DNA of 64,000 bases from a virus: IMG/VR virus record IMGVR_UViG_3300045988_084596, positions 57,930 to 121,929 of that record; one strand, written 5' to 3'. Below, in pieces: positions 50,516-51,925 of the stretch. The notes beneath the pieces were generated by a model. The model searched no databases and was not told the origin of the DNA. It saw only the letters and a program-made list of their open reading frames with translations. The position numbers were made by a program, and so were the translations under genes. Numbering within the stretch: the stretch's first letter is position 1; the number at the start of each line of letters is the position of its first letter.

Positions 50516-51046
50516 ATGACTAATGCTCAAATTATTTGGAAATACTTTAAAGGCAAAGGTTTTAGTGATTGCGGAATTGCCGGTTTAATGGGTAATCTTT
50601 ATGCCGAAAGTGGACTTAATTCTATTAACTTATAGAACACCTATGAAAAAAAATTAAAAATGACCGACGCAGGATATACCTCCGCAGTTGATGATGGAAG
50701 GTATAAAAACTTTGTAAAAGATGGAGCGGGATATGGATTGGCTCAATGGACATTTTGGAGCAGAAAACAAAATTTGCTTTAGTTCTGTCAAAGTCGAGGT
50801 AAATCCATTGGAGATTTAAATACTCAATTAGATTTTTTATATTAGGAGTTAATTACAAGTTTTTCTAGTTTAGTTAAAATTTTGATTTCTGCCACTTCTG
50901 TCACAGAAGCCTCTACCGCAGTATTACTCTAGTTTGAAAGACCTTCAGACTAGAGTTTTTCTATGCAACAAAAGAGAGCTAATTATGGTCAATAGTATTA
51001 TAATAAATTTGCTAACATTTCAAATGTAATTGAAGGAGGTAATAAA
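50516..51046 (+). CDS. lysozyme-like peptidoglycan hydrolase domain protein (candidate endolysin part), 5-6 in-frame TAG; 3' end uncertain
   Basis: ATG 50516 overlapping the previous stop. GIAGLMGNLYAESG ... GYGLAQW motifs. The frame runs on without a non-TAG stop into the next two genes. Confidence 0.45.
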
Positions 51047-51697
51047 ATGAAATATAGCGATAGCAATAAACCACTTCAATGTATGATGACAAATAGCACT
51101 TGCTATAAACAAACACGCACCATGCAAGTTAAAGGAATCTTATGGCATAGTACTGGTGCAAATAATCCTAATTTAAAAAGATATGTATAGCCAAGCGATA
51201 ATGATCCTAACTACACCAGTTTAATAAATAAATTAGGAAAAAATACTAGCAAGAATGACTGGAATCATATATCTGTTCAAGCTGGATTAAACTGTTGGAT
51301 TGGTAAATTGGCTGATGGAACAGTAACAACAGTATAGACAATGCCATGGAATTATCGTCCTTGGGGATGCGGTTCTGGGTCTAAAGGTTCTTGTAATAAT
51401 GGATGGATTCAGTTTGAAATTTGCGAAGATGGATTAAATGATGCAAATTATTTTAACAAAATTTATGAAGAGGCTTGTCAAATTACTGCTTATTTATGTA
51501 AAATGTATAACATAAATCCATTGGGAACCACTACTTTAAATGGTATCACCGTTCCGACTATTTTATGTCATGCTGATAGTCACAAGCTAGGATTAGGATC
51601 TAATCATGCAGATGTAAACCATTGGTTTCCAAAATTTGGGAAAAGCATGGAAACCGCAAGAACAGATGTTTATAATTTAATGTCAAATATCTAGGAG
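51047..51697 (+). CDS. N-acetylmuramoyl-L-alanine amidase (amidase_2/PGRP-like), 2 internal TAG, ends at a TAG
   Basis: Strong RBS GAAGGAGG then ATG 51047. ILWHSTGANN ... CHADSH ... H-D zinc-ligand pattern typical of T7-lysozyme-type amidases. The next in-frame gene starts 12 nt after a TAG at 51695. Confidence 0.55.
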
Positions 51698-51709
51698 GAT
51701 GATGAAGAT

Positions 51710-51925
51710 ATGACTGACGAGAAATTCGCTGAACTTATGAATACTTGGCTTACTAATAAAGCTAATGAAAAAGAAACTTGGGGCACCGATAATCTTGAAT
51801 GGGCTAAAGCGAATGGGATTATGGCTGGAGACAGTGCTGGAAGAATGATGCCAAATAAATTCTGCACTAGATTAGAAACTGTAACTATGTTAAGAAGATT
51901 GGCTGAAAAGCTGGGTTTAAAATGA
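51710..51925 (+). CDS. SLH-like cell-wall-binding domain protein (71 aa)
   Basis: RBS TAGGAGGATGATGAAG then ATG 51710. W..NGI...D...P....TR.E..TML.R pattern resembles S-layer-homology domains. Confidence 0.45.
   Translation: MTDEKFAELMNTWLTNKANEKETWGTDNLEWAKANGIMAGDSAGRMMPNKFCTRLETVTMLRRLAEKLGLK

What the first reader, a model, noticed from the sequence alone, without database searches (positions are those of the whole stretch)
50516..51925. Partitioned use of TAG: recoded in late/selfish genes, absent from replication genes, and apparently serving as the only separator between three in-frame lysis genes
In-frame TAG is concentrated in homing-endonuclease genes (10 in 5976, 9 in 59160), tail fibres (3-5 each) and the lysis module. 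The long DNA-metabolism genes (topoisomerase A/B, DNA ligase, NAMPT-like, NadE, PhoH, MVP, Ro-like) contain none. In the lysis region one continuous frame runs 50516-51925. Two internal ATGs with strong Shine-Dalgarno sequences (GAAGGAGG then ATG 51047; AGGAGGATGATGAAG then ATG 51710) each lie a few codons after a TAG (50993, 51695). TAG may therefore still terminate translation when suppressor tRNA is scarce (early) and be read through to give fusion products late. This fits the proposal (recalled from the recoded-phage literature, not checked here) that phage stop-codon recoding times the expression of lytic genes.
Basis: partly seen in the sequence, partly recalled or inferred. Interest (0 to 1): 0.6.

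Follow-up and report, generated by a model that had tools for sequence, protein, structure and literature searches.

The report
One three-domain endolysin, not three genes
This stretch is a single phage gene for a three-part cell-wall-cutting enzyme, in a virus that reads the TAG stop codon as glutamine. The two TAGs thought to separate three genes are ordinary recoded codons, and the uneven use of TAG between gene classes is real but already described for such phages.

Summary
The sequence facts mostly hold. The frame 50516-51925 has no TAA or TGA and carries nine in-frame TAGs. Two internal ATGs (51047, 51710) have strong Shine-Dalgarno sites. TAG supplies 38% of Gln codons in homing-endonuclease, tail-fibre and lysis genes but 3% in DNA and auxiliary genes (p=6e-20).

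The separator reading fails. The frame encodes one endolysin: Phage_lysozyme2, Amidase_2 and a single SLH repeat. All 47 unique three-domain relatives are continuous ORFs, and 13 contain no TAG at all. At the two junction positions relatives carry sense codons (CGT, ACC, GAG and others). TAG occurs there only in the window's own clade (at least 87% identity).

The supposed first and second genes carry five and two further TAGs, several at invariant Gln positions. Neither enzyme could therefore be made without suppression. TAG 50993 lies inside the last helix of the lysozyme domain.

The internal starts are conserved: ATG at residue 178 in 47/47, ATG or GTG at residue 399 in 47/47, each with a conserved SD. 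They fit the known class of internal translation starts in endolysin genes.

TAG bias towards late and lysis genes is already published. Verdict: a new member of known kinds, of modest interest.

The parts
50516..51925 (+). Single endolysin gene: 469 codons plus TGA, with nine TAG codons read as Gln
   Evidence: Continuous frame. More than 120 full-length homologues of 442-487 aa share the same three-domain architecture. 47 unique three-domain ORFs were recovered as DNA, 13 of them TAG-free.
50522..51010 (+). Phage_lysozyme2 (PF18013) catalytic domain, residues 3-165. Contains TAGs at 50633, 50780, 50843, 50930, 50951 and 50993.
   Evidence: Pfam 121.5 bits (cut-off 28.2), profile positions 2-140 of 140. 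The model has helix 148-169. Foldseek matches the phi29 gp13 lysozyme domain, 3CSR. TAG positions 40, 139 and 146 are Q in 118-120 of 120 homologues.
50993..50995 (+). 'Junction 1' TAG (codon 160): a clade-specific sense codon, not a separator
   Evidence: Homologue residues are R 74, Q 16 and others 30 of 120. Codons in the 47 unique ORFs include CGT 19, TAG 8, ACC 5, CAA 1 and others.
51032..51049 (+). Predicted internal translation start 1: SD GAAGGAGG, 7-nt spacer, ATG (Met178). Would give an Amidase-SLH isoform of 292 aa.
   Evidence: ATG in 47/47 unique ORFs. Mean anti-SD duplex energy is -11.0 kcal/mol against a gene mean of -2.2 +/- 1.9. It is the strongest of 279 internal in-frame ATGs in the window. 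The SD is kept although the linker residues differ.
51119..51574 (+). Amidase_2 (PF01510) catalytic domain, residues 202-353. TAGs at 51188 and 51335.
   Evidence: Pfam 45 bits (cut-off 26). Foldseek matches AmiE, AmiA, PlyL, PlyG and LytA amidases. Q225 and Q274 are invariant in 120/120 homologues.
51692..51694 (+). 'Junction 2' TAG (codon 393), in disordered linker 2. It overlaps the 5' edge of the second SD.
   Evidence: Homologue residues are E 81, gap 28, Q 7 and others 4 of 120. Codons are GAG 20, TAG 8 and others. The linker 393-399 has pLDDT below 50.
51693..51712 (+). Predicted internal translation start 2: SD AGGAGGA, 10-nt spacer, ATG (Met399). Would give a free SLH module of 71 aa.
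   Evidence: ATG in 46 and GTG in 1 of 47 unique ORFs; GTG also in L140. Mean SD energy is -10.3 kcal/mol. GAG-GAG is preferred here although GAG is only 31% of Glu codons. The site is absent where a different C-terminal domain replaces this one.
51710..51922 (+). C-terminal cell-wall-binding module: one helix plus a single SLH repeat. No TAG and no Gln codon.
   Evidence: Pfam SLH 23.7 bits on the module alone (cut-off 20.8); 8 of 16 relatives match. The profile matches the B. anthracis Sap SLH domain, 3PYW, at E=1e-6. The W, G-x-x-x-G and TR-x-E motifs are conserved.
49659..50513 (+). Upstream cassette gene: NAGPA (phosphodiester glycosidase) plus SPOR domain, 2 TAGs. Its TAA stop lies 2 nt before the endolysin ATG.
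   Evidence: Pfam 73.2 and 58.3 bits. Junction sequence TAAAAATG. Present only in the window clade (L007), absent from the other relatives examined.
51922..52257 (+). 111-aa membrane protein, holin candidate. Its ATG overlaps the endolysin TGA (ATGA).
   Evidence: Hydrophobic segment at about residues 14-38. A small gene of 97-123 aa occupies this position in all relatives examined and carries TAGs in four of the five counted (L001, L005, L007, L009; none in L012). No Pfam or PHROG family match.
26731..26806 (+). Suppressor tRNA(CUA), probably charged with Gln
   Evidence: ARAGORN and Rfam both call a tRNA. Acceptor-stem positions 2-6 and 67-73, including G73, are identical to the phage tRNA-Gln(UUG). 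TAG columns align with CAA/CAG or Q.
49609..49636 (+). Terminator-like hairpin just upstream of the lysis cassette
   Evidence: 12-bp stem plus T tract. Consensus scan only.
52259..52297 (+). Terminator-like hairpin just downstream of the lysis cassette
   Evidence: 17-bp stem plus T tract. Consensus scan only.

Best explanation
**What it is.** 50516-51925 is one gene in a phage that reads TAG as Gln (genetic code 15). It encodes a modular Gram-positive-type endolysin with three parts:
- an N-terminal Phage_lysozyme2 glycosidase;
- a central Amidase_2 N-acetylmuramoyl-L-alanine amidase;
- a C-terminal single SLH repeat that binds the cell wall.

**The TAGs.** All nine TAGs are sense codons, decoded by the phage's own tRNA(CUA). 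The two 'junction' TAGs are incidental substitutions in one sub-clade: one at a variable position of the last lysozyme helix, the other in linker 2. They do not divide the gene.

**Dependence on suppression.** Both catalytic domains contain TAG at invariant Gln positions, so no active enzyme can be made until suppression works. The sequence shows this dependence directly. That it delays lysis in time is inferred, following the published recoding model.

**The internal starts.** The two internal SD+ATG sites are most likely conserved internal translation initiation sites of the kind known in endolysin genes. They would give three nested products: full length (469 aa), Amidase-SLH (292 aa) and SLH alone (71 aa). 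A single SLH repeat has to trimerise to form a binding module, so these products probably co-assemble. The internal initiation and the assembly are inferred, not shown.
For: **One gene**
- More than 120 homologues of 442-487 aa carry PF18013 and PF01510, most also PF00395.
- Across 171 fetched loci, no TAA/TGA stop falls between the lysozyme and amidase domains. The only two split loci are interrupted inside the lysozyme domain.
- 13 unique three-domain ORFs have zero TAG, so they are unambiguous single proteins under the standard code.

**TAG is sense and means Gln**
- TAG positions 40, 225 and 274 are Q in 120/120 homologues; positions 139 and 146 are Q in 118-119.
- TAG columns align with CAA/CAG.
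- The tRNA(CUA) shares its acceptor stem with tRNA-Gln.

**The junction TAGs are not conserved**
- Codon 160 is CGT, ACC, ACA, AAA and others in relatives; codon 393 is GAG, AAA, GGA and others.
- TAG occurs at both positions only in the 8 sequences of the window clade.

**Structure**
- Residue 160 lies in helix 148-169.
- The linkers 168-176 and 393-399 have pLDDT below 50.

**Internal starts**
- Met178 is present in 120/120 proteins. Residue 399 is Met in 119 and Val in 1.
- ATG or GTG only at these positions in DNA.
- Upstream SD energies average -11.0 and -10.3 kcal/mol, against -2.2 +/- 1.9 for the gene. Other conserved Mets (25, 378, 445) sit at background.
- The two sites rank first and joint third among 279 internal in-frame ATGs in the window.
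- Free-standing amidase genes start exactly at the Met178 equivalent.

**Published precedents**
- Internal starts between two catalytic domains, or before the binding domain, are documented (PMC9430671; PMC4777826).
- LysBT1, an amidase with a single SLH repeat, trimerises through that repeat (PMC12285257).

**Partition**; repeated in relatives.
Against: - No expression, proteomic or ribosome-profiling data exist for this phage. Internal initiation and oligomerisation are predictions.
- Linkers rich in Gly and Glu (GGA GGN, GAG GAG) can produce SD-like strings as a by-product of composition.
- The predictor used in PMC9430671 also called internal starts in 15% of portal genes, which are presumed false positives.
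- Relatives with a different N-terminal domain (L130, L140) lack an SD before the amidase Met. Site 1 could therefore be a fusion relic.
- The annotated start at 50516 has no SD of its own (+2.0 kcal/mol). Full-length synthesis would then depend on coupling to the upstream gene.
- Early and late classes are assigned from function alone.
- The structure model is of moderate quality (mean pLDDT 73.6, pTM 0.47).
Confidence: 0.85

Rival explanations
1. First reader's model. Three separate in-frame lysis genes (lysozyme, amidase, binding protein) are divided only by TAG. TAG terminates early, giving three proteins, and is read through late, giving fusions.
For: In the window each internal SD+ATG follows a TAG, by 18 and 6 codons. 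Free-standing amidase genes that begin at the Met178 equivalent exist in other phages.
Against: - Relatives have sense codons at both junctions and no stop of any kind; 13 unique ORFs have no TAG at all.
- There are five further TAGs within 'gene 1' and two within 'gene 2', at invariant Gln positions. Termination would occur at codons 40 and 225.
- TAG 50993 truncates the lysozyme domain.
- TAG followed by an SD+ATG is no commoner than for CAA/CAG: 2 of 87 against 6 of 500.
Confidence: 0.03
2. It is a single gene, but the internal SD+ATG sites do nothing. They are relics of the fusion of once-separate genes, or by-products of Gly/Glu-rich linkers. Only the 469-aa chain is made.
For: - The amidase module exists as a separate gene starting at the same Met.
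- L130 and L140 lack an SD before that Met.
- The linker residues (GG, EE, EED) naturally encode GGAGG or GAGGAG.
- A 15% false-positive rate was reported for such predictions (PMC9430671).
Against: - The SD persists in lineages only 50-65% identical, although the linker peptides differ (EGGNK, KEEMAK, GGISG, QEVSK, KGDGG and others).
- GAG-GAG is used at residue 394 in 28 of 36 sequences, although GAG is 31% of Glu codons.
- Residue 399 alternates only between ATG and GTG.
- Both Mets are invariant within otherwise variable, disordered linkers.
Confidence: 0.25
3. TAG is decoded ambiguously throughout infection because RF1 competes with the suppressor. The gene then yields a ladder of truncated peptides, some with their own function.
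For: Suppressor tRNAs generally compete with RF1 (general knowledge). The window shows no RF1-control gene among the proteins scanned.
Against: - The first TAG is at codon 40, so most truncations would be non-functional fragments.
- TAG positions are not conserved between relatives, so no particular truncated product is under selection.
Confidence: 0.05

Closest known systems
TAG-to-Gln (code 15) recoded gut phages with late/lysis-biased recoding (Borges et al., bioRxiv 10.1101/2021.08.26.457843; phAss-1 group, PMC10607447)
   Same: - In-frame TAG aligned with Gln, and a phage-encoded tRNA(CUA).
- TAG concentrated in structural and lysis genes, variable or absent in replication genes.
- Recoded modules scattered through a genome of about 147 kb.
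- A homing endonuclease preferentially recoded (reported there for Agate phages).
- Predicted Firmicutes host.
   Different: - Membership of a named clade (for example Sapphire) was not tested.
- Here the lysis cassette is embedded between TAG-free PhoH and RNase H/topoisomerase genes.
- Several classes of homing endonuclease (DUF2726-type, HNH, LAGLIDADG, GIY-YIG) are TAG-rich.
Endolysin genes with in-frame internal translation start sites (Lys170, CTP1L/CD27L, phi2638A, Ms6 LysA, LysP7951; PMC9430671, PMC4777826, PMC12203907)
   Same: - An in-frame ATG with its own RBS at a domain boundary, conserved across the sequence cluster.
- Both known positions are represented: between two catalytic domains, and before the cell-wall-binding domain.
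   Different: - Two predicted sites in one gene, giving three nested products. The papers read here describe two polypeptides per gene.
- No experimental confirmation here.
- The gene is TAG-recoded.
LysBT1 of a Brevibacillus thermoruber prophage (Amidase_2 plus a single C-terminal SLH; PMC12285257)
   Same: - An Amidase_2 catalytic domain followed by a flexible linker and one SLH repeat with the W, G-I-I-x-G-like and TR-x-E motifs.
- LysBT1 trimerises through its SLH repeat.
   Different: - The window protein has an additional N-terminal Phage_lysozyme2 domain and predicted internal starts.
- Trimerisation is not tested here.
- Sequence similarity to LysBT1 itself was not measured.
Phage_lysozyme2 (PF18013) / phi29 gp13 N-terminal lysozyme-like domain (PDB 3CSQ/3CSR)
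   Same: Full-length Pfam match (121.5 bits) and a Foldseek match (E about 1e-5) for residues of about 1-170.
   Different: It is used here as an endolysin catalytic domain rather than as part of a tail protein.

Membership tests
Genetic code 15 (TAG=Gln) phage | In-frame TAG in conserved genes, at positions where homologues have Gln | tested here: met
   TAG positions 40, 225 and 274 are Q in 120/120 homologues; positions 139 and 146 in 118-119. TAG columns align with CAA/CAG.
Genetic code 15 (TAG=Gln) phage | Phage-encoded suppressor tRNA with a CUA anticodon | tested here: met
   tRNA(CUA) at 26731-26806. Its acceptor stem and G73 match the phage tRNA-Gln(UUG).
Genetic code 15 (TAG=Gln) phage | Gln actually inserted at TAG in infected cells | not testable with these tools
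   Needs proteomics.
Late/lysis-biased stop-codon recoding (Borges model) | Recoded codon enriched in structural and lysis genes relative to standard Gln codons, and depleted in early/replication genes | tested here: met
   62 of 165 against 6 of 220 Gln codons, Fisher p=5.6e-20. Repeated for the endolysin against RNase H and GyrB in five relatives.
Late/lysis-biased stop-codon recoding (Borges model) | Suppressor activity rises during infection, so that TAG-containing genes are translated late | not testable with these tools
   Needs time-resolved tRNA-seq, Ribo-seq or proteomics.
   Sense codons at both junctions. No TAA or TGA in any of the 47 unique three-domain ORFs.
   Five further TAGs inside the lysozyme part and two inside the amidase part. 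Only the 71-aa SLH part is TAG-free.
Modular Gram-positive phage endolysin | Peptidoglycan-hydrolase catalytic domain(s) plus a cell-wall-binding domain in one chain | tested here: met
   PF18013 121.5 bits, PF01510 45 bits, SLH 23.7 bits on the module alone. PHROG endolysin families match. Foldseek matches amidase and gp13 lysozyme folds.
Modular Gram-positive phage endolysin | Adjacent holin | tested here: inconclusive
   A 111-aa membrane protein overlaps the stop codon (ATGA), and a small gene occupies this position in the relatives examined. It matches no holin family.
[quoted passage not shown] | In-frame start codon with its own RBS, away from the gene ends, at a domain boundary | tested here: met
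   SD energies of -12.5 and -10.2 kcal/mol at 51047 and 51710, ranking first and joint third of 279 internal ATGs. Both lie at disordered linkers.
[quoted passage not shown] | Site present at the same relative position in most members of the sequence cluster (criterion of PMC9430671) | tested here: met
   47/47 and 47/47 unique ORFs. SD profile peaks only at residues 178 and 399.
[quoted passage not shown] | A shorter polypeptide is actually produced and, in some members, forms a complex with the full-length chain | not testable with these tools
   Needs expression with a C-terminal tag, then SEC or native MS.
SLH cell-wall-binding domain | Pfam SLH match above the gathering score, plus the W / G-x-x-x-G / TR-x-E motifs | tested here: met
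   23.7 bits against 20.8 on the 71-aa module; the full-length scan gave 19.8, just below the cut-off. Motifs conserved. Matches Sap SLH, 3PYW, at E=1e-6.
SLH cell-wall-binding domain | Three tandem repeats forming the three-pronged spindle | tested here: not met
   There is only one repeat per chain. As in LysBT1 and SlpA (PMC12285257), this implies that three chains must associate.

The most novel reading that the evidence does not exclude
One recoded gene yields three nested isoforms: lysozyme-amidase-SLH, amidase-SLH and SLH alone. Each carries a single SLH repeat, and they assemble through those repeats into a heterotrimeric lysin.

TAG is depleted from the SLH-only reading frame: 3 of 31 Gln codons against 63 of 210 upstream across ten recoded lineages, p=0.017. 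The binding subunit can therefore be made under the host's standard code, while both catalytic isoforms need the phage suppressor tRNA. The code switch would then control not only when the lysin appears but also its subunit composition.
Probability: 0.12. Interest if true: 0.6.

Novelty: new member of a known kind. Interest (0 to 1): 0.3.

Why it matters
- For annotation: in TAG-recoded phages, frames must be read with code 15 and compared with relatives before a TAG is interpreted as a gene boundary. Under the standard code this endolysin breaks into about ten fragments.
- For biology: it adds a clear case of a lysis cassette that is TAG-dependent while embedded among TAG-free replication genes. 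That fits the published idea that recoding guards against premature lysis.
- The one element that goes a little beyond what is described is a family-wide pair of conserved internal start sites in an endolysin whose binding module is a single SLH repeat. If confirmed, it would be a three-product, probably trimeric, lysin. That would be of some interest for endolysin engineering against gut Clostridia.

Tried and rejected
- **blastn against GenBank phages.** The lysis region (49600-52300) gave no match, so no annotated close relative is available. tblastn found only partial-domain matches below 60% identity, to phages of Faecalibacterium, Oscillospiraceae, Acutalibacter and others. These suggest a Clostridia host but do not prove it.
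- **'The SLH reading frame is TAG-free in all recoded relatives.'** The IMG/VR loci first looked strong: 1 of 20 against 39 of 71 columns, p=6e-5. Metagenome loci added lineages with TAG in the SLH part (L109, L119). The result weakened to 2 of 14 against 37 of 62 columns (p=0.003), and 3 of 31 against 63 of 210 codons (p=0.017), without phylogenetic correction. I keep it only as a weak trend.
- **General depletion of TAG towards gene 3' ends**, as an explanation of that trend. Rejected: 5 of 17 against 56 of 182, p=1.
- **'TAG then SD+ATG' as a recurring device in the window.** Rejected: only the two endolysin cases among 87 TAGs, and the CAA/CAG control gives 6 of 500.
- **Any locus with lysozyme and amidase split at the junction.** None found. 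L095 has a 1-nt frameshift and L103 an in-frame stop, both inside the lysozyme domain.
- **ARAGORN's label 'tRNA-Pyl'** is simply its name for a CUA anticodon. The acceptor stem points to Gln.
- **Holin assignment by Pfam or PHROGs** for 51922-52257. No match.
- **Sigma-70 promoter scan.** Not above the shuffled background (44 found against 36 +/- 6), so nothing can be said about the cassette's promoter.
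Full report
**1. What is in the sequence**

The window has 35.9% G+C, and its genes all appear to lie on the + strand. It carries 29 tRNA genes, among them a tRNA with anticodon CUA at 26731-26806 (confirmed as a tRNA by Rfam).

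Read with only TAA and TGA as stops, 50516-51925 is one frame of 469 codons ending in TGA. It has nine in-frame TAGs, at 50633, 50780, 50843, 50930, 50951, 50993, 51188, 51335 and 51692.

ATG 51047 (Met178) follows GAAGGAGG after a 7-nt spacer. ATG 51710 (Met399) follows AGGAGGA after a 10-nt spacer.

**2. What the frame encodes**

With TAG translated as Gln, Pfam finds three domains:
- Phage_lysozyme2 at residues 3-165: 121.5 bits, covering the whole profile.
- Amidase_2 at residues 202-353: 45 bits.
- A weak SLH match at residues 422-454.

Scanned on its own, the last 71 residues pass the SLH gathering score (23.7 against 20.8 bits), and 8 of 16 relatives match. A profile of this module matches the SLH domain of B. 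anthracis Sap (3PYW) at E=1e-6. The W, G-x-x-x-G and TR-x-E motifs are conserved.

PHROGs matches endolysin and amidase families.

An AlphaFold2 model was built from the 99%-identical P0002 with 19 homologues (mean pLDDT 73.6). It shows three folded parts joined by low-confidence linkers at residues 168-176 and 393-399, directly before the two internal Mets. Residue 160 sits in the middle of helix 148-169. Foldseek matches Amidase_2 enzymes (AmiE, AmiA, PlyL, PlyG, LytA) and the lysozyme domain of phi29 gp13.

Neighbouring genes:
- Upstream is a NAGPA+SPOR protein (49659-50513). Its TAA stop lies 2 nt before the endolysin ATG.
- Downstream is a 111-aa membrane protein whose ATG overlaps the endolysin TGA. 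It is a holin candidate without a family match.

**3. The decisive comparison**

A search of 5.8 billion proteins returned more than 120 homologues of 442-487 aa, 61-99% identical. All were called as single chains with the same domains.

I fetched DNA for 171 loci from ENA/Logan, IMG/VR and metagenome contigs.
- No TAA or TGA stop falls between the lysozyme and amidase domains in any locus.
- The only two exceptions are interrupted inside the lysozyme domain, not at a junction. One has a 1-nt frameshift and one an in-frame stop.
- Among 47 unique three-domain ORFs, 13 contain no TAG at all. Under the standard code these are unambiguous single proteins.

| Position | Codons in the 47 unique ORFs | Residues in 120 homologue proteins |
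|---|---|---|
| 160 | CGT 19, TAG 8, ACC 5, plus ACA, AAA, AAG, AGG, AAT, GAA, CAA, GTA, AAC, GAT | R 74, Q 16, others 30 |
| 393 | GAG 20, TAG 8, plus AAA, GGA, GAA, AAT and others | E 81, gap 28, Q 7, others 4 |

The eight sequences with TAG at both positions are the window and its close relatives (at least 87% identity). The junction TAGs are therefore recent, lineage-specific substitutions at variable positions.

By contrast, the TAGs at codons 40, 225 and 274 sit where all 120 homologues have Gln, and those at 139 and 146 where 118-119 do. These must be read as Gln for either enzyme to fold. The tRNA(CUA) shares acceptor-stem positions 2-6 and 67-73 with the phage's tRNA-Gln(UUG).

**4. 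Why the 'separator' model fails on its own terms**

If TAG terminated, a ribosome starting at 50516 would stop at codon 40. One starting at Met178 would stop at codon 225. Neither catalytic protein could be made.

Only the 71-aa SLH part is free of TAG. A stop at codon 160 would also cut the last helix of the lysozyme domain.

Across the window, only these 2 of 87 in-frame TAGs are followed within 20 codons by an in-frame ATG with an SD. For CAA/CAG the figure is 6 of 500, so there is no general TAG-restart device.

**5. The internal starts look real**

Conservation of the start codons:
- Met178 is invariant in 120/120 proteins and is ATG in 47/47 unique ORFs.
- Residue 399 is Met in 119 and Val in 1 of 120 proteins. 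In DNA it is ATG in 46 and GTG in 1 of 47.
- A second GTG occurs in L140. Alternation between ATG and GTG only is what a start codon would show.

Strength and conservation of the SD:
- I scored duplex energy with the anti-SD for every codon of 36 unique genes that carry this C-terminal module. Residues 178 and 399 average -11.0 and -10.3 kcal/mol. The gene mean is -2.2 +/- 1.9.
- Other conserved Mets (25, 378, 445) are at background.
- The SD before Met178 persists although the encoded linker changes (EGGNK, KEEMAK, GGISG, QEVSK, KGDGG and others).
- Before Met399, GAG-GAG is used although GAG is only 31% of Glu codons.
- Where a different C-terminal domain replaces the SLH module, both the Met and the SD are absent.
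- In the window itself, the two sites rank first and joint third among 279 internal in-frame ATGs. Several of the other top sites are probably true starts of over-extended ORFs.

Origin of the first site: free-standing amidase genes in other phages begin exactly at the Met178 equivalent. The site therefore probably descends from a gene fusion.

Caveats:
- Relatives with another N-terminal domain (L130, L140) lack the SD there.
- Gly/Glu-rich linkers can mimic an SD.
- The published predictor for such sites has a false-positive rate of about 15% (PMC9430671).

In-frame internal starts, either between two catalytic domains or before the binding domain, are an established feature of Gram-positive endolysin genes (PMC9430671, PMC4777826, PMC12203907). 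I put the probability that at least one of the two sites is used at about 0.6-0.7.

**6. A mechanistic inference**

SLH repeats bind secondary cell-wall polymers as a three-pronged (pseudo)trimer. Proteins with a single repeat trimerise. LysBT1, an Amidase_2 endolysin with a single SLH repeat, was shown to do so (PMC12285257).

The window protein has one repeat, so it very probably acts as an oligomer. Nested products from the internal starts could supply the extra SLH repeats. This is inference only.

**7. The partition of TAG**

Using 92 code-15 ORFs and Pfam/PHROG annotation, TAG as a share of Gln codons is:

| Gene class | TAG | CAA+CAG | TAG share of Gln codons |
|---|---|---|---|
| 7 homing-endonuclease genes | 35 | 50 | 41% |
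| 4 Mtd_N tail-fibre genes | 16 | 31 | 34% |
| 3 lysis-cassette genes | 11 | 22 | 33% |
| 8 DNA-metabolism genes | 4 | 70 | 5% |
| 15 auxiliary genes (MVP-like, DUF2828/DUF7788, NAD salvage, RNA repair, PhoH) | 2 | 144 | 1.4% |

- The first three classes combined against the last two give Fisher p=5.6e-20.
- Heterogeneity among genes of at least 100 aa gives chi-square p=2e-10.
- Out-of-frame TAG density is similar in all classes.
- The bias follows individual genes, not regions. TAG-rich endonuclease genes (46689-47435, 59160-60071) and the lysis cassette lie between TAG-free neighbours.
- In five relatives the endolysin always carries TAGs, and the downstream membrane protein does in four of the five (L012 has none). 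RNase H has none in four and one in L012, and GyrB has none. PhoH varies from 0 to 6, and the two GIY-YIG genes of L012 have none.

This is the pattern reported by Borges et al.: structural and lysis genes recoded, replication genes variable, a recoded intron endonuclease, and recoded modules scattered in larger genomes. They proposed the same timing model (see also PMC10607447). The timing itself cannot be tested here.

**8. A lead that weakened**

In the first data set the SLH reading frame almost never carried TAG in recoded relatives: 1 of 20 against 39 of 71 Gln columns, p=6e-5. This was not a general 3'-end effect.

Adding metagenome loci brought lineages with TAG in the SLH part. The result fell to 2 of 14 against 37 of 62 columns (p=0.003). 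For one representative of each of ten lineages it is 3 of 31 against 63 of 210 codons (p=0.017). I report it as a weak, uncorrected trend. It forms the basis of the 'novel case' only.

**9. Verdict**

The coordinates hold a single, TAG-recoded, three-module endolysin gene with two probably functional internal translation starts. The TAGs are Gln codons, not separators. The TAG partition is real and statistically strong, but it is an instance of a published phenomenon. Novelty: a new member of known kinds. Interest: modest.

Noticed in passing
window 14520-14850 (+): Rfam finds a full-length tmRNA (RF00023, 70.9 bits, cut-off 47, model positions 1-374) inside the phage tRNA cluster. ARAGORN did not report it. 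Its 3' end overlaps the start of the ORF extended to 14826. The LAGLIDADG gene more probably starts at the SD-preceded ATG at 14937.
   Followed up: no
window 17636-17755 (+) and 8616-8672 (+): Rfam gives a tRNA match spanning 120 nt (50.9 bits), possibly a tRNA with an insertion or intron. It also gives a weak partial tRNA match (33 bits). ARAGORN called neither.
   Followed up: no
window 28854-46651 (+): An almost TAG-free block of about 18 kb (2 TAGs) carries unusual auxiliary genes:
- a DUF2828/DUF7788 protein and a major-vault-protein-like protein (MVP shoulder and Vault repeats, 813 aa);
- RNA-repair-type genes: RlaP-like nucleotidyltransferase, RNA ligase, Thg1, an AAA_33 kinase and three metallophosphatases;
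- an NAD salvage set: an isochorismatase-family protein (possibly a nicotinamidase), a PRTase, an NAPRTase-family enzyme and NAD synthase.
   Followed up: partly
window 49609-49636 and 52259-52297 (+): Strong terminator-like hairpins (12-bp and 17-bp stems with T tracts) bracket the three-gene lysis cassette exactly. Only about 22 nt separate the first hairpin from the cassette's first ATG, which leaves no room for a conventional promoter. Transcription of the cassette may therefore need read-through or antitermination.
   Followed up: partly
window 5910-6923, 27906-28817, 46689-47435 (+): Three paralogous endonuclease genes carry repeated 'LxGxxFGxLTV...WxCxCDCGN' modules and a DUF2726-like C-terminal domain. 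The first of them matches PHROG HNH/homing-endonuclease families. They are the most TAG-dense genes in the window (10, 4 and 5 TAGs). The HNH-like gene at 62626-63111 has none.
   Followed up: partly
window 49659-50513 (+); L007 2145-2999: The NAGPA (phosphodiester glycosidase) + SPOR gene upstream of the endolysin is present only in the window's sub-clade. In the other relatives the endolysin directly follows PhoH or a GIY-YIG gene and has its own SD. In the window the endolysin start has no SD and appears to be translationally coupled (TAAaaATG).
   Followed up: partly
loci L025, L046, L047, L028, L033 and others, compared with L001-L012: The same endolysin family occurs in contigs where this gene carries no TAG, which may be standard-code phages, and in TAG-recoded contigs. 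It also occurs in other domain orders: amidase then lysozyme, an amidase domain with other regions but no lysozyme or SLH module, and lysozyme then amidase then another C-terminal domain. Code use and module order both vary within the family.
   Followed up: partly
L095 (256-1708) and L103 (280-1755): Two metagenome copies of the endolysin are interrupted inside the lysozyme domain. One has a 1-nt frameshift in a sequence 98% identical to the window gene. The other has an in-frame TAA or TGA. These may be assembly errors or pseudogenes.
   Followed up: no
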